38,194 nt of DNA from the IMG/VR virus record IMGVR_UViG_2925914267_000004. One strand, written 5' to 3'. The translations under genes were made by a program, and so were the position numbers. The notes under the pieces are model-generated. The model saw only the letters and a list, made by a program, of their open reading frames with translations. It searched no databases and was not told the origin of the DNA. Below are positions 1 to 8,557 of the stretch, piece after piece. Position 1 is the first letter of the stretch. Each line of letters opens with the position of its first letter. Source of the stretch: a virus. Lineage: Duplodnaviria > Heunggongvirae > Uroviricota > Caudoviricetes.

Positions 1-993
1 CTAATCGATGGACAGTTTATGGACACTTTCAGCCAGCGGATTAAAGTTGATCGCGTCCTGTAAGAAGTCCGGCGAAAAATGAGCGTACGTCATTGTTTGC
101 TGAATCGTTGCGTGCCCCAGGATTCGTTGCAACGTAACAATATTTCCGCCATTCATCATAAAGTGTGTGGCAAATGTATGACGCATGACATGCGTAGCCT
201 GCCCCTTCGGCAAATCCGGTTTCACCTCCTGAAGAATCTCCCGGAACTTCAGATAATCAACCTGATACAATAACCCCGTTCGACGGGTTTTAATCAGAGG
301 CACGACCGAATCCGCCACAGGAACCGAACGGGATTTTCCGTTTTTGGTGTTAAAGAACGTCACCCGGTTGCCAACGATATGCTCTCCACGTAGTTCCGAT
401 GCTTCACTCCATCGGGCACCAGTAGAAAGACACAGAATGGCAACACGACGCGCATCCCCCTCCAGTCGCTCAAGAAGCCGTTCAATCTCATCATCAGAAA
501 GAAAGGCCATCTCTGTGTTCTGAACTTTCAGTTTTCGTATACCGCGTACAGGGTTCGCGTTGTGAAAGACCTCAGCTTCAATCAGCACCGTGAACATGGT
601 AGACAGTACACATAAGTCACGATTAATACTGGACGGCATTAATCCGGCCTGTAATTTCTCTGACCGATATTCAAGCATAAATTTTCGCGTCATCTGACTG
701 GCGCGAGGATCTCCCATTTCACGAACAACCTTCCCTAGCCTAACCCTGTAGCTATCCCCGTAAGCCTGATTACGCCCATCAAGCATCCACCACGCATCAA
801 GCAGCTCTGATAATCGCCGCTGATCAGCTGGCTTAGCCTGCCATGGCTTGTCATGAAAGTTCTGTAACACATACTTCTCAAACTCCTGAGCCTTTGATTT
901 CAGGGCAAAGATTTTTCGAATCCGCTTTCCTTCCGCCCCCTGCGGTCTGACATCGACCTGATAACGTCCGTCTTTGAGTTGCTTAATCGACAT
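1..993 (-). CDS. int: Tyrosine integrase (P2 Int-like site-specific recombinase)
   Basis: Track ORF 1..1008 begins at TTG; the in-frame ATG at 993 gives MSIKQLKDGRYQVDVRP. C-terminal tyrosine-recombinase signature HTFATHFMMNGGNIVTLQRILGHATIQQTMTYAHF. First gene at the prophage end, convergent with nothing upstream in the window. Confidence 0.9.
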   Translation of the reverse strand: MSIKQLKDGRYQVDVRPQGAEGKRIRKIFALKSKAQEFEKYVLQNFHDKPWQAKPADQRRLSELLDAWWMLDGRNQAYGDSYRVRLGKVVREMGDPRASQMTRKFMLEYRSEKLQAGLMPSSINRDLCVLSTMFTVLIEAEVFHNANPVRGIRKLKVQNTEMAFLSDDEIERLLERLEGDARRVAILCLSTGARWSEASELRGEHIVGNRVTFFNTKNGKSRSVPVADSVVPLIKTRRTGLLYQVDYLKFREILQEVKPDLPKGQATHVMRHTFATHFMMNGGNIVTLQRILGHATIQQTMTYAHFSPDFLQDAINFNPLAESVHKLSID

Positions 994-1062
994 GATTAGC
1001 CCCTCCAACGGATAAATTAACTAAACACTCCTTGCGATATGTAATTCGCTCAATGTGTAGAG

Positions 1063-1404
1063 TCAGCCAACATTGCGGCCTGATCGGGGTGATTTTTGGG
1101 TAATACCGATTGAAACCTGATCGCCCTCCGACTGAATAGATCCATCAAGAGAGAGAGCCGGAGCAATCTGCCCGGCGACAGGTAGCGTCTTATCTTTTAT
1201 TAGCCACAGCATGTATTTTTCAAAGCGATCGACTTGCAGAACCGCCTCAACGATTTTTGCTCTAGCGTTCTTTTGCCCCGATTCGTAATTCCTTATGGTT
1301 GCCAAAGACAACCCAGTAATATCCGCAAACTGCTTTTGTGTTAACCCTTCCGCCTTACGTATCTGACGTAACTTTTTTGCATAGTCTATTGACAAGATAA
1401 CCAT
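1063..1404 (-). CDS. Immunity repressor, HTH XRE-type (P2 C-like)
   Basis: 113-aa ORF with helix-turn-helix QKQFADITGLSLATIRNYESG, sitting immediately upstream of int and divergent from the early operon, which is the P2 repressor position. Confidence 0.8.
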   Translation of the reverse strand: MVILSIDYAKKLRQIRKAEGLTQKQFADITGLSLATIRNYESGQKNARAKIVEAVLQVDRFEKYMLWLIKDKTLPVAGQIAPALSLDGSIQSEGDQVSIGITQKSPRSGRNVG

Positions 1405-1447
1405 TTGAGTATTAACCTCTCACACAAAGATAACCTTTTGGTTATCT
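1394..1447. promoter_or_regulatory. Lysis/lysogeny switch operator region between divergent repressor and early operon
   Basis: AGATAACC occurs at about 1395-1402 and again inside the palindrome AGATAACC-TTTT-GGTTATCT at 1428-1447, in the about 100-bp gap between the divergent start codons. Confidence 0.45.
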
Positions 1448-1508
1448 TTACAAGCCAAAACAAACCATCACAAGGCGCAACAAGCGCACCAACGCAAGAG
1501 GATAACAA

Positions 1509-2030
1509 ATGCGGGACTTCATTGCCGATAAAGAGTTATCTGACCACCAACCACTTCAGGAAAGTGACGCACTCAGCGGATCCATTGATGCTGCCAACGA
1601 CGACGAACACGAAGAAAACAAGAAAAAGCGTTCCTACAAAAAAGGAGCGACTTTACGGCTGGATGGTCCGATCGCCGGGCTTTGCTCTCTGGAAAAAGGC
1701 GCGGCATATATTGGGCTAACAAAATCTGCACTGCGCGTAGCCATTCATCGCGGTCAAATGCCGGGACACAAGACGCGCACAAACCCGGAAGATGAAAACT
1801 CAGACGGAGTATGGTGGTTTAACGCCAAAGAGTGGGACAAGTTGGCTGATGAGCTACCAGAGCACGAGCCCCCAGAATGGCACAACTGGAAAAGTTACTG
1901 GACGTATGACCGCCAGAAAAGGAAGTTCTCTCCAGCTAATAAAGAAGACTGCCAGACCATTAACGGTAAGCGAGTTTATACAGGCAGAAGCTCAAAACTG
2001 GAGCAACTCAGAAACAACAGAGGCAACTAA
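1509..2030 (+). CDS. Early HTH DNA-binding protein, Cox/excisionase-like (first early gene)
   Basis: ATG at 1509 preceded by AAGAGGA. Internal HTH GAAYIGLTKSALRVAIHRGQMP and excisionase-like WWFNAKEWDKL. At 173 aa it is longer than P2 Cox, so the identity is tentative. Confidence 0.5.
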   Translation: MRDFIADKELSDHQPLQESDALSGSIDAANDDEHEENKKKRSYKKGATLRLDGPIAGLCSLEKGAAYIGLTKSALRVAIHRGQMPGHKTRTNPEDENSDGVWWFNAKEWDKLADELPEHEPPEWHNWKSYWTYDRQKRKFSPANKEDCQTINGKRVYTGRSSKLEQLRNNRGN

Positions 2031-2034
2031 TCGC

Positions 2035-2457
2035 ATGAAAACAAACACGTCAGATTTCACAATAACTATTTCAAAAAATGACCAAGCATTAATTGATAAC
2101 CTGAAATACCTTGCGGAAAAACATAATAACGGACGAATTGCAATTAATTTACGACACATCACAGGAGTAACAATTGTAACCAGTTACTGGCATCTATATC
2201 TAATCGCTAAATCAGTACTGGAAAACAAAGATTCTGTTGTCAATGGAAGAGATGTAGATACTCTTCCTGCACAAATCAAACCGATAGCCTATCAATTGCG
2301 TAATCGTTTTAAAAATGAAGGTGGGATTATATTTGACTTTCCCGCAGCTGTAGCCGTGAGCTTCTCTCGGGAGGATATACTTCACTCATTTCGTTTTGCT
2401 CTATCAGGTGACGAGACATTATGGCAGCTAGAAGATGCCGGGAGCAGCCCGGCATAA
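2035..2457 (+). CDS. Hypothetical protein (AT-rich early-region cargo)
   Basis: In-frame ATG at 2035 within track ORF 1792..2457; the upstream part of that ORF overlaps the previous gene in another frame. AT-rich by eye. Confidence 0.45.
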   Translation: MKTNTSDFTITISKNDQALIDNLKYLAEKHNNGRIAINLRHITGVTIVTSYWHLYLIAKSVLENKDSVVNGRDVDTLPAQIKPIAYQLRNRFKNEGGIIFDFPAAVAVSFSREDILHSFRFALSGDETLWQLEDAGSSPA

Positions 2458-2463
2458 ATCAAA

Positions 2464-2655
2464 TTAAAAGTCAACCAGTTGTGTGACAGGTGGGTATTTA
2501 CGCTGAATTTTGTCAGTTACTAACGCCAGTAATATATGAATCTCTGCGTTTAATGCGTCTTTATCACCCGTCGTTTTTACCCTGGGAGGGTTAATGTTAT
2601 CCAGAGCAGCACTAAGTTCACTCAACAAATTAACAACTTTTTTATCTTCTGACAT
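2464..2655 (-). CDS. Hypothetical small protein, convergent with 2035..2457
   Basis: 63-aa ORF on the opposite strand, 6 bp from the stop of the previous gene, in the same AT-rich patch. Confidence 0.35.
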   Translation of the reverse strand: MSEDKKVVNLLSELSAALDNINPPRVKTTGDKDALNAEIHILLALVTDKIQRKYPPVTQLVDF

Positions 2656-2791
2656 GAAAACCTCTTAACAATTTAATTAAACATAAGCTAGGACCTGAAC
2701 CGGCCAGTCCAAGTCCTAGACACACAAAAAAATACCACAAATCAATACAAGGTGACACGAGTACACCTTACCGAAGGTACAGAGTTTTAAT

Positions 2792-3142
2792 ATGAAACTA
2801 CAGCGCAATTATTCACAGCAGCGCTTCCGCAACGGTGCGGAACGCCATGCTAACCGTTTCGCTACCAGCGCATCACGTAGCAGCTCTCGCTACAGCCTGA
2901 GCGAAACACACGCAACGCCGGATGGCTACCCCGTAAAACAAATCGGCGAACACACCTGGCTGATTGAGAAAGCTGGAATCGTGGTCCACAAATGCCCACG
3001 CAATCCGTTTACCGGAAGCCGCATTTTTGCCCTGAGCAGCGGCGACAATCAGTTCGGACAGGATTTCACATTATACGAAGCACTACGCACGGTTGATCGT
3101 CTGCTTCGCGGGCAAAGTTTTATTAAACAGGCTGATTTATAA
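2792..3142 (+). CDS. Hypothetical early protein
   Basis: 116-aa ORF with ATG start, part of a co-directional early gene string. Confidence 0.5.
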   Translation: MKLQRNYSQQRFRNGAERHANRFATSASRSSSRYSLSETHATPDGYPVKQIGEHTWLIEKAGIVVHKCPRNPFTGSRIFALSSGDNQFGQDFTLYEALRTVDRLLRGQSFIKQADL

Positions 3143-3152
3143 CAGGTGCTTT

Positions 3153-3440
3153 ATGACTAAAGACCATGCACAAGGTGTATTTATCCGTTTTATTGATTTT
3201 CGCGGTGAACTGTTATTACGTGCATCCGCTATTGATGGAGTGACTCCGGCGAGTAAAAACGGAGCCGACGAAGCCACTTACGTTTATCTGAACGGTACGC
3301 GACTTCTTGTGGAACTTCCGTACCAGACCGTACGAGAAATCATTAGCGAAGCTGAAAAGGCACGTCAGGTTAATGGCGATGAACCCTATATCGAAATTAT
3401 TTGCATGGATTCAGAAGCTGAAATCCAGAAAGCAGATTAA
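3153..3440 (+). CDS. Hypothetical early protein
   Basis: In-frame ATG at 3153 within track ORF 3093..3440 (MTKDHAQGVF...). Confidence 0.5.
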   Translation: MTKDHAQGVFIRFIDFRGELLLRASAIDGVTPASKNGADEATYVYLNGTRLLVELPYQTVREIISEAEKARQVNGDEPYIEIICMDSEAEIQKAD

Positions 3441-3451
3441 AGGGGGTTGCG

Positions 3452-3694
3452 ATGGGCAAAGAATATAAAACTCTCATTAACAAAGCACTTGAGCGTTTTT
3501 ATTTTCGCTTAAGCGCATCAGGCACTCATGCTGAACGTGCAGCCCGTGACTCATTGACCAGGGCAATCCGGAGTCTGTATGACGTCGCTTTTTACGCTGA
3601 TGATCTGGATGCACTTAACGAACTTTCTGAGCTTATCTGCGCCGCAGAATGCGGGGAACATATTGAACCGTATAAGCTGGGGAATATCGCATGA
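3452..3694 (+). CDS. Hypothetical early protein
   Basis: 80-aa ORF, ATG start preceded by AAGGGGG. Confidence 0.5.
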   Translation: MGKEYKTLINKALERFYFRLSASGTHAERAARDSLTRAIRSLYDVAFYADDLDALNELSELICAAECGEHIEPYKLGNIA

Positions 3695-3804
3695 GTATAT
3701 TTATCTCATGGCCTGTTCTGATTATTTCGGTGGCCTGCGCCATTAGGATTATGCGAATTATTCATTCAGTGAAAAAGATTGAACGTTTTTTCACTGGTGA
3801 ATAA
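3691..3804 (+). CDS. Possible small hydrophobic peptide (37 aa)
   Basis: ATG at 3691 overlaps the previous stop (ATGA coupling). Translation MSIFISWPVLIISVACAIRIMRIIHSVKKIERFFTGE has one predicted transmembrane helix. A 10-bp-stem hairpin CAGTGAAAAA/TTTTTCACTG lies at its 3' end (about 3767-3797). Confidence 0.25.
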   Translation: MSIFISWPVLIISVACAIRIMRIIHSVKKIERFFTGE

Positions 3805-3892
3805 CAGCACAAACAAAACACCAGATTAAATAAGAAAAAGTGAAAACATCTGCATTAGCGGAGGGATTCACACATTTAAACAAGGGGTGACA

Positions 3893-4213
3893 ATGAATAA
3901 GAATGCAGAAATCATCAAAATTCACGAAAGAATATTAATAATTCTCAAGCACCTCCACGATGATGAACTGGAAGAGGCACTACCCGTCGCCATTGAACTC
4001 ACCAAAAACCTTGTTGACGGAACCTGCCCGGAACATAAACCAGGCCTGTTTATGGTACTGCTGACAGCGAAAGCTCTGTTAGAGGAGCTCTCATCGACCA
4101 TCGACTCGCTTCTCACCGAAATAGACGAACTACACGACCACATTGAAGGACTGGAAATTCAGCTATCTCGCGTTCGTCGTCAGAAACAGAGCGGCGAGCG
4201 CAATGGCAATTAA
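3893..4213 (+). CDS. Hypothetical early protein with C-terminal coiled coil
   Basis: ATG at 3893 preceded by AAGGGGTGA; MNKNAEIIKIHERIL... Confidence 0.5.
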   Translation: MNKNAEIIKIHERILIILKHLHDDELEEALPVAIELTKNLVDGTCPEHKPGLFMVLLTAKALLEELSSTIDSLLTEIDELHDHIEGLEIQLSRVRRQKQSGERNGN

Positions 4214-4406
4214 GCGTTTTTCCGTCATTCGTTTCACCTCCAGAGGGCATGAATACGAAGTTGACGAACGGCTGATTAAAACGCTCGACCGTCACCGTTC
4301 GCAACCTGACGCGCATCACATTTATCTCACTGACGACACTTACTTCTGCGCCACCAACGTGGTGCAGGTGAATCTTATCAGACAGGTACAGGAGTCACGC
4401 AGATGA
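4203..4406 (+). CDS. Hypothetical small early protein
   Basis: In-frame ATG at 4203 within track ORF 4143..4406; overlaps the previous gene end as in a coupled operon. Confidence 0.4.
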   Translation: MAIKRFSVIRFTSRGHEYEVDERLIKTLDRHRSQPDAHHIYLTDDTYFCATNVVQVNLIRQVQESRR

Positions 4407-4648
4407 CCATTCTGGACTACATCGCCGCCAATCCGAATTGTAGTGGTGGAGAAATCGCCGCAGCACTGAACACCCCAACCACAGCCATTAATGCGGAGTT
4501 ACGCCAACTCTGGCGTGACGGCTTAGTCACCAGAGAAGAGCGCAAAACAGGCGGTCGCTTTTCTTACCAGGTAAACCCGATGCCGTTCGGGTGTGGCAAT
4601 CCACTTACCAACATGTTTAACCAGCTACTGAAGGAAGCCAGAGCATGA
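4403..4648 (+). CDS. Hypothetical small protein, possible winged-helix DNA binder
   Basis: 81-aa ORF whose start overlaps the previous stop. Confidence 0.5.
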   Translation: MTILDYIAANPNCSGGEIAAALNTPTTAINAELRQLWRDGLVTREERKTGGRFSYQVNPMPFGCGNPLTNMFNQLLKEARA

Positions 4649-4944
4649 GCGCCATCAACCACCAGGAATTACGCGAACTGGCGATTGACCTGCAACGAAT
4701 GGCAACGCCTCAAAAATTACTGGCGTTTCGCGCAATGCTCTCGCCGTCTGCTGTGCTGGCGCTGCTGGATGAGCTGGGGCACGCCAGAACCACATCTCTC
4801 GCCATTCGCCTGACGCTCCGTCATGAAATCGAGGATTTCTGCGCGACGTTGGAGGCGCCAGGCGAACCGAAAACGCCGGAAGCAATACAGCAAGAGCTGC
4901 TGCAACGCATTAACAAGGTTTTTGTTTTTTTTCTGAACCGCTAA
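4645..4944 (+). CDS. Hypothetical early protein
   Basis: 99-aa ORF with ATG overlapping the previous stop. Confidence 0.5.
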   Translation: MSAINHQELRELAIDLQRMATPQKLLAFRAMLSPSAVLALLDELGHARTTSLAIRLTLRHEIEDFCATLEAPGEPKTPEAIQQELLQRINKVFVFFLNR

Positions 4945-5266
4945 GAAACCAGAACATGCACACACAAAAAAACCGCTTGCCATGCCGCAATCAGTCAGGT
5001 TACATTTCCGCTGCACCTCACAAAACGGGTGTCGGGTTTCGCAGCCTGCTGACAACCAAAGCGCACAACCGCGCCAGCGGTTTTTTTGTGCGTACCGTAT
5101 CGCCACGTCTTTTTCGCACACGAATTATGGTGGGGCGTATGGGGCCGACTTCGGTCGGGCCGGGTTCTTTGGTTGCCGGTACTGCGAACCTCGTACGTCT
5201 CGCCACCCACAGTTTCGCAGCTCTGGATGGTGAGTTTTCAAAACTTACAACCAAAGAGGCCACACC

Positions 5267-5497
5267 ATGGCAAACCGCAAACAGCACCGCGCTATCGCGG
5301 AGCGTCGTCACATCCAGACTGAAATCAACCGCAGACTTTCCCGCGCATCACGCGTCGCTAAAATCATGCACATCAATATGCTGCATGAACGTAGCTGCGA
5401 ACTTTCAAACCTCTACTCATCCGCTGTTTTCAGCTATCTGGCGGATGATCTGCGCGAGCTTCAGCAGCTCATCCAGCAGCAAAACAAACTCCATTAA
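5267..5497 (+). CDS. Hypothetical small basic protein
   Basis: 76-aa ORF preceded by GAGG; follows an about 320-bp non-coding stretch. Confidence 0.45.
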   Translation: MANRKQHRAIAERRHIQTEINRRLSRASRVAKIMHINMLHERSCELSNLYSSAVFSYLADDLRELQQLIQQQNKLH

Positions 5498-5569
5498 TTC
5501 CTGTTCCGGGCCTTTCCTGCACCTTGCGGCGGGAGGCCTTCGCACATCTGTAACAAGAGGATTGCCGCA

Positions 5570-5935
5570 ATGATTCTCGCCAACGACTTTCTTGAATACC
5601 TGCTCAACACAGAACGTGATCTTGCCGCCCGCGTGCGTGATCGTTATGACATGTACCTGAAATCCCTGCCTGTACCGCGGCTCGCTGACGGAAAGATTGT
5701 TATTGATGGTCGCTACATGATTGACAGCCATGAGGGAAATTACAGGCTTTACCGCATTGAAGGTGGCACCCCGTCCGTTATTGGCATTTACCAGCGCCCA
5801 TCCTCTGCAATCGTCGATGTGATTGCCGACATCATCCGCATCACACATCGCCATGCCGACACAGAAGACACCGTGCTGGAAATTCAGCGGCTGGCTACCG
5901 TCTGCCGCGACACCCTGAATGGCATGACGAAGTAA
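5570..5935 (+). CDS. Hypothetical protein immediately upstream of replication gene A
   Basis: 121-aa ORF in the position of a P2 replication accessory gene; position only. Confidence 0.45.
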   Translation: MILANDFLEYLLNTERDLAARVRDRYDMYLKSLPVPRLADGKIVIDGRYMIDSHEGNYRLYRIEGGTPSVIGIYQRPSSAIVDVIADIIRITHRHADTEDTVLEIQRLATVCRDTLNGMTK

Positions 5936-5941
5936 ATCACT

Positions 5942-8557
5942 ATGACGGCAGAGTACATCAGGGACTGGCAACAACCACGCCACGCAGTGGGGCGTGAAGG
6001 AACGGGGATCCCCGCTCCTGAATCCGCGCTTTCCTCCTGGCTGGATGCCTACCGGGCAGAGAACGAGCGCCGCCAGGAAATGGCTGATGCGGCGTTCTCC
6101 GCCACGCCGCTGGACAACCTGATTAATAAAAGCCTGGACGCACAGGAAAAACAGGACAAAACCATCACACTGGCAGGAGACGCAAGAAAACAGGCACGCG
6201 GCGCGGTGGATGAAGCCATGGCCTCGCTGCGCCTGCTGCCGTCCTATCTGCGCGATCCGCTTATTCGCCACCTCTCCTTCCTGCGCAAAAAACAGGAAGC
6301 CGATCGCCGGAAAGGCAAAAAGAGCTGGCAGGCGGAACGCTATGCACGCGGAACCCTGCGCAAAATATTCGAACGTCTGGAGCGCACCGACAGCCGCTGG
6401 CTGACACCGGGTTATCGCGCCCTTGCCGGACGCGAACGCCTGGACGATTTGCTTTACCTGCCGCAGCTTAACAAGCACCAGATACAGACGCTGGCCACCA
6501 TGACGGCGGCAATGTTCAGCAGCACCTTTGAGACTCTCTGTGATGGTTTCGGTGCCAGAGATGGCGAGCTGACCATGGATGTAACGCTGAAGGCGTATCA
6601 GATGCTGGCCCGCATGGCGTTACACCTGCACGCCATGCCTCCACATTATGACGCACTGACAACAGACAAAGACCGGAGGAACGAACCGGACACGGAACTG
6701 CTGCCGGGCGCAATCCTTCGCCTGACCTGTGCGGACTGGTGGAAACGCAAACTGTGGCTGTTACGTTGTGAGTGGCGGGAAGAACAACTCCGCGCCGCCT
6801 GTCTGGTTTCCAGAAAAACATCACCCTATCTGAGCCAGGACGCGTTAAGCGAGTTTCGCGCACAGCGCGAGAAAACACGCGATTTCCTGAAAAGTTTCAT
6901 GCTGGAAAATGAAGACGGGTTCACGATTGATCTCGAGACGGTGTATTACGCGGGAGTAAGTAACCCGGTTCACCGTAAGGCAGAAATGATGGCCACCATG
7001 AAGGGACTGGAACTTCTGGCCGAAGCCCGTGGCGACAAAGCGGTGTTTCTGACTGTCACCTGCCCGTCAAAATACCACGCCACAACAGAGAACGGTCATC
7101 CGAATCCCAAATGGAACGGGGCCACCATGCGCGACTCCAGCGATTACCTGGTTAACACGTTTTTTGCGGCGGTCCGCAAAAAACTGAACCGCGACGGCCT
7201 GCGCTGGTATGGCATCCGCACGGTGGAGCCTCACCATGACGGCACCGTGCACTGGCATATGATGGTCTTTGCTCATCCGGAAGAAATCGACACCATTGTG
7301 TCCCACACCCGCGATATTGCCATTCAGGAAGACCGCCACGAACTGGGCAATGATATTACTCCGCGCTTTAAGGCGGAGTACGTCGACGGCTCAAAAGGCA
7401 CGCCAACCAGCTACATCGCCACCTACATCGGAAAGAACCTGGACAGCCACGCCGTGGATGGCATCGACCCGAAAACGGGCAAGCCACGCGTTGACCACGA
7501 AACCGGAAAATCAATGGCCGAGAGCGTGGAGCACGCCATCGGCTGGGCGCGCCTTCACCGGGTCCGCCAGTTCCAGTTCTTTGGCATCCCCTCCCGTCAG
7601 GTGTGGCGTGAACTGCGCCGCCTTGCCAGCCAGATGGCACGCAACCCGGAAGGCCCGCAACAGCTGAAGGATGACGCAATGGATGCGGTACTCGCTGCCG
7701 CTGATGCCGGGTGTTTTGCCACCTACATTGAAAAACAGGGTGGCGTGCTTGTTCCACGCAAAGACTACCTGATTCGCACCGCCTACGACCTCGCAGATGA
7801 GCTGAACGATTACGGCGAACAGAGCGTACAGATTTACGGGATCTGGTCGCCGCTCATCGGGGAGTCTTCCCGCGTGTGCACGCATCCGGATAACTGGAAG
7901 CTGGTAAGACGTAAACCGGAAGCGGAAGACAGCGCCCGCGAAAATGGTTTTGACCTTCAGGGCGGCCCTGCCGCCCCTTGGACTCGTGGCAATAACTGTC
8001 CCCGTGTACAGGAAACGGACAACAACGGGACAGAACAGCCGGAAGAACGGCCAGCACCGTGGCCGCAGCTTCCTGACGGCATTGAAGTGAATGAATGGAT
8101 GCGCTCACTGAAACGGCACGAACGCCGGGCGCTGATGCGTTCGCTGCGTGAAAAACCAGTAAATACCAGCAGCGGTGATACACCTGACCGGATGGCAGGG
8201 CATAAACAACCGCCAGACATACCAGTATCACCTGCCACTGAATGGAGAAAATCAGCCGGGGAACCGGGCATAAAACTGAGCGATGAACATATACAGCACC
8301 TGATGAAGACGGGAATGCTGCGTATTAATGGCCATGTACTGGAAGTCACTGACGGCAGACTGACACACCGTCGCGATCAGCGCACAGACAGGAAGGTGAG
8401 CCGCATCTGGGAACGCCTGAGCCGCAATCATGGCATCAGCGCAACTGAAATCAGGTACAACCCGCTCGCACACTACGTGGACATGCTCAGGAATATCGGC
8501 GTGGAGGCTTTACCCGCAGTCACAGAACACAGACATCAGGGAGATGAATCTCAGTGA
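5942..8557 (+). CDS. A: Rolling-circle replication initiator/endonuclease (P2 gpA-like)
   Basis: 871-aa ORF with the HUH-type motif VHWHMMVFAHPEE; the largest early gene, in the canonical A position. Confidence 0.9.
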   Translation: MTAEYIRDWQQPRHAVGREGTGIPAPESALSSWLDAYRAENERRQEMADAAFSATPLDNLINKSLDAQEKQDKTITLAGDARKQARGAVDEAMASLRLLPSYLRDPLIRHLSFLRKKQEADRRKGKKSWQAERYARGTLRKIFERLERTDSRWLTPGYRALAGRERLDDLLYLPQLNKHQIQTLATMTAAMFSSTFETLCDGFGARDGELTMDVTLKAYQMLARMALHLHAMPPHYDALTTDKDRRNEPDTELLPGAILRLTCADWWKRKLWLLRCEWREEQLRAACLVSRKTSPYLSQDALSEFRAQREKTRDFLKSFMLENEDGFTIDLETVYYAGVSNPVHRKAEMMATMKGLELLAEARGDKAVFLTVTCPSKYHATTENGHPNPKWNGATMRDSSDYLVNTFFAAVRKKLNRDGLRWYGIRTVEPHHDGTVHWHMMVFAHPEEIDTIVSHTRDIAIQEDRHELGNDITPRFKAEYVDGSKGTPTSYIATYIGKNLDSHAVDGIDPKTGKPRVDHETGKSMAESVEHAIGWARLHRVRQFQFFGIPSRQVWRELRRLASQMARNPEGPQQLKDDAMDAVLAAADAGCFATYIEKQGGVLVPRKDYLIRTAYDLADELNDYGEQSVQIYGIWSPLIGESSRVCTHPDNWKLVRRKPEAEDSARENGFDLQGGPAAPWTRGNNCPRVQETDNNGTEQPEERPAPWPQLPDGIEVNEWMRSLKRHERRALMRSLREKPVNTSSGDTPDRMAGHKQPPDIPVSPATEWRKSAGEPGIKLSDEHIQHLMKTGMLRINGHVLEVTDGRLTHRRDQRTDRKVSRIWERLSRNHGISATEIRYNPLAHYVDMLRNIGVEALPAVTEHRHQGDESQ

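What the first reader, a model, noticed from the sequence alone, without database searches (positions are those of the whole stretch)
2035..2655. AT-rich convergent gene pair in the early region (possible moron or addiction/exclusion pair)
A 140-aa plus-strand ORF and a 63-aa minus-strand ORF face each other 6 bp apart in a patch that looks distinctly AT-rich compared with flanking early genes. I recognise neither protein. Convergent small gene pairs of foreign composition inside an otherwise co-directional early operon are often lysogenic-conversion or exclusion cargo.
Basis: seen in the sequence. Interest (0 to 1): 0.4.

Follow-up and report, generated by a model that had tools for sequence, protein, structure and literature searches.

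The report
Convergent accessory gene pair in prophage
An AT-rich 0.7-kb cassette inserted just after the cox gene of a P2-like (P88-type) E. coli prophage carries two uncharacterised genes that face each other, one read with the early lytic genes and one that appears to have its own promoter; the same face-to-face layout recurs in related prophages of Salmonella and Yersinia, so it looks like a small two-gene accessory module of unknown function.

Summary
A 140-aa ORF (2035-2457, +) and a 63-aa ORF (2464-2655, -) converge 6 bp apart. At 38.3% G+C they are the lowest-GC stretch of the 38-kb window (mean 52.7%).

The window is a P88-like (Xuanwuvirus, P2-family) prophage. The pair lies between cox and the DUF4761 gene, which are adjacent in P88 and in 5 of 6 sampled relatives. 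It is therefore accessory cargo in a sharply bounded variable slot (about 2042-2774).

Neither protein matches Pfam, PHROGs, NCBIfam, PADLOC, PDB or BFVD. They are not orphans, though. orf140 belongs to an unnamed family (about 42 clusters, Enterobacteriaceae). Where a context was read, the member lies after cox, once after another such pair. orf63 has 30-33% identical homologues that also converge on orf140-family genes in Yersinia, Salmonella and E. coli prophages.

By sequence, orf63 looks like a separate leftward transcription unit: a conserved extended -10, a 5' stem-loop, a Shine-Dalgarno site and a terminator-like hairpin inside the last codons of orf140. In other prophages the same promoter cassette drives at least five other minus-strand cargoes with no detected similarity to orf63.

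My best reading is a moron-like unit facing an early-operon gene, so the two products belong to opposite phage states and may antagonise each other. Function is untested. Interest is moderate.

The parts
1509..2030 (+). cox (173 aa). This is the first gene of the early operon and the left anchor of the variable slot.
   Evidence: Pfam Phage_Cox E=1.9e-7; phrog_23196 E=1e-116. Homology to relatives with a different slot content ends at 2012-2041.
2042..2774 (.). AT-rich variable cassette (about 733 bp, about 38.5% G+C). It is absent from P88 and from most P88-like prophages, and is replaced by other content in some.
   Evidence: BLASTN breakpoints against L002, L004, L008, L013, L026 and L027. 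GC values. Empty or different slots.
2035..2457 (+). orf140. It lies 4 nt after the cox stop, so it is presumably co-transcribed from the early promoter. It belongs to an unnamed post-cox family with a core of about 120 aa. The AF2 model shows two helix, beta-hairpin, helix units.
2435..2455 (-). GC-rich hairpin (AUGCCGGG-CUGCU-CCCGGCAU on the minus strand) just downstream of the orf63 stop, inside the last codons of orf140. It is a candidate terminator for leftward transcripts only.
   Evidence: Folds. The equivalent hairpins in L011 and L007 are followed by a canonical U-tract (UUUUUCUUUC, UUUUUCUUUUG). In the window the tail is weaker (AUCUUCUAGC) and the scan tool did not call it. On the + strand no T-run follows.
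2464..2655 (-). orf63, a soluble protein predicted to be a helical hairpin (helices 3-21 and 31-53). Conserved family motifs are an N-terminal M-x-x-D-x-K-V and a C-terminal K-Y-P.
   Evidence: Homologues converge on orf140-family genes in L009 (Yersinia), L011 and L024 (Salmonella), and L012-L018. dN/dS 0.13-0.53. AF2 single sequence, pLDDT 69.
2661..2666 (-). Shine-Dalgarno sequence AAGAGG, 5 nt upstream of the orf63 ATG.
   Evidence: Read from the sequence.
2688..2719 (-). 14-bp stem-loop at the predicted 5' end of the orf63 mRNA.
   Evidence: RNAfold -25.4 kcal/mol, z = -3.3. Stem-loops of different sequence (-17 to -29 kcal/mol) sit at the same place in 6 of 7 cassette types.
2728..2741 (-). 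TTTGTGGTATTTTT, containing an extended -10 element (TGgTATTTT, 2729-2737). It is the probable promoter ('P_left') of orf63.
   Evidence: The 14-mer is exactly conserved in otherwise divergent cassettes (L008, L009, L012-L023). It occurs once in the window with 0 mismatches. TGnTAYNYT lies 67-73 nt upstream of the ATG in 6 of 7 cassette types. No match to the C-operator-like palindrome of the Pe/Pc region. The promoter is inferred, not shown.
2792..3142 (+). DUF4761 gene. This is the next early-operon gene and the right anchor of the slot.
   Evidence: Pfam DUF4761 E=2e-69. Homology to P88 and others resumes at 2775-2785.

Best explanation
Shown. The pair is an accessory, horizontally exchanged cassette in a variable slot between cox and the DUF4761 gene of a P88-like (P2-family) prophage. 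orf140 is an unnamed-family gene appended to cox in the early lytic operon.

Inferred from conserved sequence anatomy. orf63 is a separate leftward transcription unit with an extended -10 promoter, a 5' stem-loop, a Shine-Dalgarno site, the ORF, and a terminator-like hairpin buried in the 3' end of orf140. That is the anatomy of a moron.

Inferred. I found no copy of the repressor-operator-like palindrome at this promoter. orf63 would therefore be made in the lysogen, when the early promoter is repressed. After induction or infection, early transcription runs antisense straight through orf63. That would shut orf63 down by collision and RNA pairing while producing orf140. The two proteins would then mark opposite phage states.

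Most speculative step. The convergent pairing recurs across genera, and other convergent plus/minus pairs with no detectable similarity occupy the same slot. I therefore think the two products are functional partners. The small helical orf63 protein would neutralise or be neutralised by orf140. This could be a lysogen-expressed exclusion or protective factor paired with an early-lytic counterpart. The target and the phenotype are unknown.
For: Accessory status.
- P88 and 5 of 6 sampled relatives have cox abutting DUF4761.
- Breakpoints are sharp.
- This is the lowest-GC segment of the window.
- 271 of 5426 complete E. coli genomes carry this pair. The DUF4761 gene is found at 1531 places.

Family and pairing.
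- orf140 has homologues at 20-33% identity.
- orf63 has homologues at 30-33% identity.
- The two families are found tail-to-tail (overlap of 4 nt to gap of 6 nt) in five divergent types. These have different repressor and cox types and come from E. coli, Salmonella and Yersinia.
- Salmonella locus L024 carries two tandem convergent modules.

Leftward unit.
- A 14-nt motif with an extended -10 is conserved.
- A 5' stem-loop is kept in structure but not in sequence.
- Terminator hairpins lie downstream of the minus-strand genes.
- No repressor-operator-like repeat is present.

Hints of coupling.
- The plus-strand domain next to the minus-strand gene co-varies with the minus-gene family. The 117-aa domain goes with the 155/168-aa family. 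The PYIYAG domain goes with the ECs1072 family, and that pair persists after the orf140-family core is deleted in L037.
- One truncated variant (P0012) reads from orf140 residue 32 straight into a tail that matches the antisense of the orf63 start. I read this as a deletion removing both genes at once; I did not inspect the DNA.

orf63 is under purifying selection.
Against: - There is no expression, interaction or phenotype data of any kind.
- The promoter has no good -35 element and the consensus scan did not call it.
- The window's terminator tail is weak.
- Co-occurrence of adjacent genes can come from physical linkage alone.
- The minus-strand cargo behind the same promoter cassette has been swapped for unrelated proteins while the orf140-family core stayed. 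That argues the minus-strand gene is independent cargo.
- L034 keeps the promoter cassette with no minus-strand ORF, and L035 pairs an unextended family member with other cargo.
- The AF2 model is of medium confidence and matched nothing.
Confidence: 0.4

Rival explanations
1. The two genes are unrelated neighbours. orf140 would be a non-essential early gene acting on the host, comparable in position to fil and dhr of phage 186. orf63 would be an independent moron that landed in a slot with a lysogeny-active promoter. There would be no functional link between them.
For: Behind the same promoter cassette, the minus-strand cargo is replaced by several families with no detected similarity to orf63 (78 aa; 103/107 aa; ECs1072-type 155 aa; 155/168 aa; 162+41 aa). 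The orf140-family core persists through these swaps. Minus-strand cargo exists without the orf140-family core in L037 and L038.
Against: The orf140-core with orf63-family pairing recurs in five deeply divergent types and three genera, and in tandem in L024. The plus-strand domain adjacent to each minus-strand gene co-varies with it.
Confidence: 0.3
2. This is a toxin-antidote (addiction-like) pair. orf140 would be growth-inhibitory. orf63, or its antisense transcript, would keep it harmless in the lysogen.
For: A small helical protein facing a larger alpha/beta protein. The transcripts must overlap because the genes are 6 bp apart and no terminator acts on the + strand. One truncated variant (P0012) is read as loss of both genes at once.
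Against: The genes are not a co-directional autoregulated operon. No toxin or antitoxin domain matches in Pfam, NCBIfam or PADLOC. Losing the prophage removes both genes, so classical addiction does not apply. The terminator after orf63 would limit antisense coverage of orf140.
Confidence: 0.12
3. The element is mainly regulatory. The conserved leftward promoter would fire against the early promoter and damp early and replication gene expression by transcriptional interference and antisense RNA. This would resemble lambda oop acting on cII, or pE of phage 186. The ORFs would be passengers.
For: The promoter cassette and its orientation are the most conserved features. They persist in L034 without any minus-strand ORF. 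186 has a leftward promoter, pE, immediately downstream of its cox analogue apl.
Against: P88 and most relatives lack the cassette entirely. Terminator hairpins stop leftward transcripts before they cross orf140 and cox. orf63 is under purifying selection. orf140 is unrelated to 186 CII.
Confidence: 0.1
4. The cargo is counter-defence. The small, mostly acidic, fast-evolving proteins under a strong constitutive promoter would inhibit host or competitor immune systems, as in anti-CRISPR or anti-restriction loci.
For: Several small soluble minus-strand proteins with no detected similarity to one another, mostly acidic, sit behind one conserved promoter next to a conserved neighbour.
Against: A gene that opposes the early operon would be switched down just when the infecting phage needs it. 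No regulator with a helix-turn-helix domain is present. Nothing resembles a known anti-defence protein in PDB or BFVD.
Confidence: 0.08

Closest known systems
Morons of temperate phages (for example in HK97 and lambda; old, tin and fun(Z) of P2). Recalled from established knowledge.
   Same: An extra gene present in some members of a phage group and absent in close relatives. Its base composition deviates from the phage. It has its own promoter-like and terminator-like signals. Its orientation and position fit expression from the prophage.
   Different: Here the unit sits inside the early operon, tail-to-tail with an early gene. Its terminator is embedded in that gene's coding sequence. The promoter cassette is conserved while the cargo changes. 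It recurs as a convergent pair, not as a lone gene. Expression from the prophage has not been shown.
Defence hotspots of P2-like phages (gpA-portal interval and Z/fun; Rousset et al. 2022, PMC9122126; NAR 2026, PMC13586616).
   Same: A bounded variable slot flanked by conserved phage genes and holding diverse accessory cargo. The 2026 survey reports that 8% of P2 defence systems lie between the integrase and gpA.
   Different: This slot (cox|DUF4761) is not one of the two main hotspots. None of its cargo matches a known defence model. Cargo is small (0.3-1.4 kb). The window's own gpA-portal interval carries a separate DUF3800 / PDC-M04A candidate.
Leftward antisense units next to early genes: lambda oop RNA versus cII (recalled), and pE of phage 186 (annotation).
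   Same: A leftward promoter lies just downstream of an early gene. Its transcript ends within, or overlaps, the 3' end of that gene. It converges with the early lytic promoter.
   Different: Those units make a non-coding RNA or the establishment transcript for the repressor. Here the unit encodes a conserved protein, is accessory, and shows no CII-like activator. hhalign of the orf140 family against 186 CII gave probability 0.1%.
Toxin-antitoxin systems.
   Same: Two small adjacent genes of foreign composition on a mobile element. One product is a short helical protein.
   Different: The orientation is convergent. No known toxin or antitoxin fold or DNA-binding domain is present. No hydrophobic type I toxin is present. 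Toxicity is untested.

Membership tests
Moron (autonomous accessory transcription unit in a prophage) | Present in some and absent in other closely related phage genomes | tested here: met
   Absent from P88 and from 6 of 6 spread-sampled P88-like loci. Present in 271 E. coli genomes.
Moron (autonomous accessory transcription unit in a prophage) | Base composition differs from the surrounding phage | tested here: met
   38.3% against 52.7% G+C; lowest 0.08% of windows.
Moron (autonomous accessory transcription unit in a prophage) | Own promoter and own terminator flanking the ORF | tested here: inconclusive
   There is a conserved extended -10 motif, a 5' stem-loop and a downstream hairpin. 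There is no -35 element, the window's terminator tail is weak, and the consensus scan called neither.
Moron (autonomous accessory transcription unit in a prophage) | Expressed from the repressed prophage | not testable with these tools
   Needs RNA-seq or a reporter assay in a lysogen.
Type II toxin-antitoxin system | Co-directional two-gene operon | tested here: not met
   The genes converge, 6 bp apart.
Type II toxin-antitoxin system | Recognisable toxin fold and an antitoxin with a DNA-binding domain | tested here: not met
   No Pfam, NCBIfam or PADLOC hit. No structural match. orf63 is modelled as a plain two-helix hairpin.
Type II toxin-antitoxin system | Toxicity of one product, relieved by the other | not testable with these tools
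   Requires expression experiments.
Type I toxin-antitoxin (antisense RNA against a small hydrophobic toxin) | Small hydrophobic membrane toxin | tested here: not met
   Both proteins are hydrophilic: GRAVY -0.19 and -0.16.
Known anti-phage defence systems (PADLOC-DB v2) | Protein matches a defence-system model | tested here: not met
   No hit for orf140 or orf63. Among the alternative slot cargoes the only hits were two weak Cas7f/Cas7fv matches (E=0.008 and 0.014) for the 155-aa ECs1072-type protein, which I read as chance.
Phage 186-type CII / pE lysogeny-establishment module | Post-apl/cox gene is a helix-turn-helix CII activator related to 186 CII | tested here: not met
   hhalign probability 0.1%. 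No helix-turn-helix domain in Pfam.
Unnamed post-cox family (defined here by alignment A2) | Core of about 120 aa alignable to A2, and a position directly downstream of cox in a P2-like early operon | tested here: met
   phmmer E=9e-8 and 4e-4 to P0013 and P0016. BLASTP of orf140 against the A2 members L024_225 (P0016) and L033_234 (P0051) gave E=1e-12 and 5e-12. Position confirmed.

The most novel reading that the evidence does not exclude
The cox|DUF4761 slot of P88-like prophages may hold a previously unrecognised class of convergent two-gene systems. One gene is wired to the early lytic transcript. The other is wired to a conserved leftward promoter that is active in the lysogen. At least five partner families with no detectable sequence similarity are used interchangeably. 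Examples are orf140/orf63, the 117-aa domain with the 155/168-aa family, and the PYIYAG domain with the ECs1072 family. In each, the two products would be antagonistic partners, for example a prophage-expressed exclusion effector and the phage's own early-expressed antidote, or the reverse.
Probability: 0.25. Interest if true: 0.7.

Novelty: new variant of a known kind. Interest (0 to 1): 0.4.

Why it matters
P2-like prophages are among the commonest prophages of Enterobacteriaceae and are known reservoirs of anti-phage genes. The slot described here is not one of the charted hotspots, and none of its cargo is annotated.

If the convergent pairs are functional units, they show a simple wiring principle: one partner is tied to lysogeny and the other to the first minutes of lytic growth. 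That principle could be used to find new exclusion, self-immunity or host-takeover systems. It would also give names to two uncharacterised protein families carried by about 5% of complete E. coli genomes, including ST131 strains.

If the two genes are only neighbours, the result is an ordinary moron beside an ordinary accessory early gene.

Tried and rejected
Searches that found nothing useful
- Profile libraries for both proteins gave nothing above noise. The only hits for orf140 were DUF1408 at E=0.007, below cut-off and seen in 1 of 22 family members, and phrog_5450 at E=0.014 over the same residues.
- PDB sequence profiles for both families gave nothing.
- Rfam gave no match at E<=1 on 1000-3500.
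- hhalign against 186 CII, Fil and Dhr was negative.
- tblastn of the commonest orf140-family type, its small partner, and the 78-aa and 155-aa cargoes against 50,697 phage records gave no match. Only three records carry the window-type pair.
- Literature searches found no paper on these genes.

Searches limited by the tools
- The Cox search in species-representative genomes returned one locus.
- The alignment-based scan of viral contigs failed at its confirmation step.

Ideas considered and dropped
- An Ogr-type late promoter (TGT-N12-ACA) upstream of orf63: not seen by eye.
- A LexA box: not seen by eye.
- A repressor operator at the leftward promoter: no shared repeat with the Pe/Pc palindrome.
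- The 14-nt T-rich motif as the U-tract of a minus-strand terminator, because a hairpin lies upstream of it. I consider this less likely, because no leftward gene lies to the right and the minus-strand genes need a promoter. It is not excluded.

Full report
**Setting**

The window opens with a tyrosine integrase (1-1008, -) and an HTH_3 repressor (1063-1404, -). A Cox-family protein follows (1509-2030, +). After it comes a run of plus-strand early genes: DUF4761, DUF4754, a MarR-like protein, an Ead/Ea22-like protein, an Ash-like protein, a derepression protein and a gpA replication endonuclease at 5942-8557. Megablast shows 95% identity over 1-6000 to three Peduoviridae records. It shows about 93-94% identity to phage P88 (Xuanwuvirus), but only from 2785 onward. 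The window is therefore a P88-like, P2-family prophage. Near-identical prophages lie next to dmsA in E. coli chromosomes.

**Observation**

The 140-aa ORF is at 2035-2457 (+) and the 63-aa ORF is at 2464-2655 (-). They converge with 6 bp between them.

| Segment | G+C |
|---|---|
| orf140 | 38.8% |
| orf63 | 38.0% |
| spacer up to DUF4761 | 38.2% |
| cox | 49.4% |
| DUF4761 | 51.9% |
| whole window | 52.6% |

Only 0.08% of 621-bp windows are as AT-rich as the pair, and the minimum of the whole window falls inside it.

**Accessory status**

- In P88, cox ends 37 bp before the DUF4761 gene.
- I sampled six DUF4761 loci at even steps down the ranking of 1531 E. coli places. In five, the cox-position gene abuts DUF4761. 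One has a 68-aa plus-strand ORF. None has the pair.
- Prophages with 96% or 95% identical cox genes carry different content in the slot (L004, L008). Homology to the window stops at 2012-2041 and resumes at 2775-2785.
- The window-type pair occurs in 271 of 5426 complete E. coli genomes. This cox type occurs in 310. Several of the listed strains are labelled ST131.

**The proteins are unannotated but not orphans**

Word-indexed searches found only copies at 95% identity or more. An exhaustive phmmer search of 1.84 billion representatives found two real distant relatives of orf140, P0013 and P0016 (about 31-32% identity). A pairwise hit to the gene that follows cox in another E. coli prophage pointed the same way.

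A profile search then returned 42 clusters from E. coli, Salmonella, Citrobacter and Yersinia. All are hypothetical and none has a Pfam domain. In every context I could read, the family member lies in the early operon after cox, either directly or after another slot gene.

The family has a core of about 120 residues. The AF2 model (pLDDT 68, pTM 0.59) shows two helix, beta-hairpin, helix units. It has no significant structural neighbour.

**The convergent pairing is conserved**

A 60-aa minus-strand gene lies tail-to-tail with the orf140-family gene in several loci:

- Yersinia enterocolitica (L009)
- Salmonella (L011 and L024)
- Several IMG/VR contigs (L012-L018)

Its product aligns with orf63 at 30-33% identity. 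Eleven columns are invariant, among them M1, D4, K6, V7 and the C-terminal K-Y-P. The spacing between the genes ranges from a 4-nt overlap to a 6-bp gap. These loci have different repressor and cox types.

dN/dS among orf63-family genes is 0.13-0.53, so they code for protein. Salmonella locus L024 carries two modules in tandem. The first is a 147-aa orf140-like gene facing a 62-aa orf63-like gene. The second is a 225-aa family member facing an unrelated 103-aa gene.

**Anatomy of the leftward unit**

Upstream of orf63 on the minus strand lies TTTGTGGTATTTTT (2728-2741). It reads as an extended -10 (TGgTATTTT). The 14-mer is exactly conserved in cassettes whose flanks differ and is unique in the window.

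A stable stem-loop (2688-2719; -25.4 kcal/mol; z = -3.3) begins where the transcript should start. In 6 of 7 cassette types, a TGnTAYNYT element lies 67-73 nt before the ATG. A stem-loop of different sequence (-17 to -29 kcal/mol) follows it. A Shine-Dalgarno sequence, AAGAGG, precedes the ATG.

Downstream of the orf63 stop, a GC-rich hairpin lies inside the last codons of the plus-strand gene. In L011 and L007 it is followed by a canonical U-tract. In the window (2435-2455) the tail is weaker. On the plus strand none of these hairpins is followed by a T-run, so early transcripts should read through.

The palindromic repeat in the Pe/Pc region (AGATAACC-N4-GGTTATCT) has no counterpart near the leftward promoter. 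All of this is inference from sequence. The consensus scan did not call the promoter or the window's terminator.

**The slot is a mosaic of convergent pairs**

The same promoter cassette drives other minus-strand cargo, none of which shows similarity to orf63:

| Minus-strand cargo | Loci |
|---|---|
| 78-aa protein | L019, L020, L023, L025, L036 |
| ECs1072-family protein (NCBIfam NF033230), 155 aa | L008, L021, L022, L037 |
| 103/107-aa family | L024, L006 |
| 155/168-aa family | L038, L033 |
| 162 + 41 aa | L035 |

Where the partner is not orf63-like, the orf140-family protein is usually longer (162-234 aa). Two of the extra tails are themselves mosaic:

- Residues 146-224 of the 234-aa protein resemble a free-standing 117-aa plus-strand gene. 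That gene pairs with the 155-aa homologue in L038.
- The tail of the 202-aa protein persists as its own ORF facing the ECs1072 gene in L037, where the orf140-family core has been deleted.

So the plus-strand domain next to each minus-strand gene travels with it.

There are exceptions. L034 keeps the promoter cassette without a minus-strand ORF. L035 pairs an unextended family member with other cargo. L007 has a frameshifted orf63-like gene.

**Interpretation**

What is firmly supported is an accessory, AT-rich cassette in a bounded variable slot. It holds one early-operon gene of an unnamed family and one gene that looks like a separate leftward unit.

The wiring implies opposite expression states, and this step is inferred. 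orf63 would be made when the early promoter is repressed. orf140 would be made when the early promoter fires, with early transcripts running antisense through orf63.

The pairing of the two families recurs across genera. Parallel plus/minus pairs in the same slot point the same way. Together they make a functional partnership somewhat more likely than not. Physical linkage alone could still produce this pattern, and the cargo swaps argue for independence.

The four rivals I weigh are:

- unrelated neighbours;
- a toxin-antidote pair;
- a mainly regulatory antisense unit;
- counter-defence cargo.

No toxin-antitoxin, defence or CII-like membership test was met.

**Comparison with what is known**

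Morons and P2-family hotspots are well known. A 2026 survey notes that 8% of P2 defence systems lie between the integrase and gpA. I found no paper on this slot, its conserved leftward promoter cassette, or the two protein families. I rate it a new variant of a known kind, of moderate interest.

Noticed in passing
window 10605-11411 (-), within the low-GC stretch about 10350-11700: A 268-aa DUF3800 protein (Pfam E=3.5e-10) matches the PADLOC candidate defence model PDC-M04A (E=2.6e-35). It lies between the gpA side and a long minus-strand ORF at 12022-13068 that I take, without testing, to be the portal gene. That interval is the classical P2 defence hotspot. It is the second most AT-rich region of the window.
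   Followed up: partly
window 9098-10057 (+) and 9927-10373 (+): A ParM/StbA actin-like segregation protein (StbA_N E=2e-82, ParM C-terminal domain E=5e-69) is followed by a Plasmid_stab_B protein. This looks like a plasmid-type partition pair inside an integrating P2-like prophage, downstream of gpA.
   Followed up: partly
window 1395-1450: A palindrome, AAAGATAACC-TTTT-GGTTATCTTT, and a further AGATAACC copy lie between the repressor gene and cox. They are a probable operator of the C repressor at the Pe/Pc switch.
   Followed up: no
L024 3245-4937 (Salmonella enterica serovar Reading contig): Two convergent modules lie in tandem after cox: 147 aa (+) facing 62 aa (-), then 225 aa (+) facing 103 aa (-). 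Each minus-strand gene has its own extended -10 and 5' stem-loop.
   Followed up: partly
L034 about 3330-3400 (E. coli Logan contig): The leftward promoter and stem-loop cassette is present, but only a 6-codon ORF follows it. A 117-aa plus-strand gene occupies the place of the minus-strand cargo. This is either a decayed module or a hint that leftward transcription matters in its own right.
   Followed up: no
L029-L031 582-1609 (E. coli TW10722, O157:H7 F8797, SCU-105): In another immunity type of P88-like prophage, a DUF2511 gene and a membrane-protein gene lie between the integrase and the repressor. This may be a second small accessory slot in the lysogeny operon.
   Followed up: no
window 2749-2769: A second small hairpin (AAGGTG-N9-CACCTT) lies just upstream of the extended -10 on the minus strand. 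Other cassette types have a GCCGGG...CCCGGC hairpin at the same place. With the T-rich motif it could also be read as a minus-strand terminator. Its role is unexplained.
   Followed up: no
proteins P0012 (40 aa) and P0014 (44 aa): These are truncated orf140 variants in public assemblies. The P0012 tail matches the antisense of the start of orf63. I read this as an internal deletion that removes most of both genes at once. I did not inspect the DNA.
   Followed up: no
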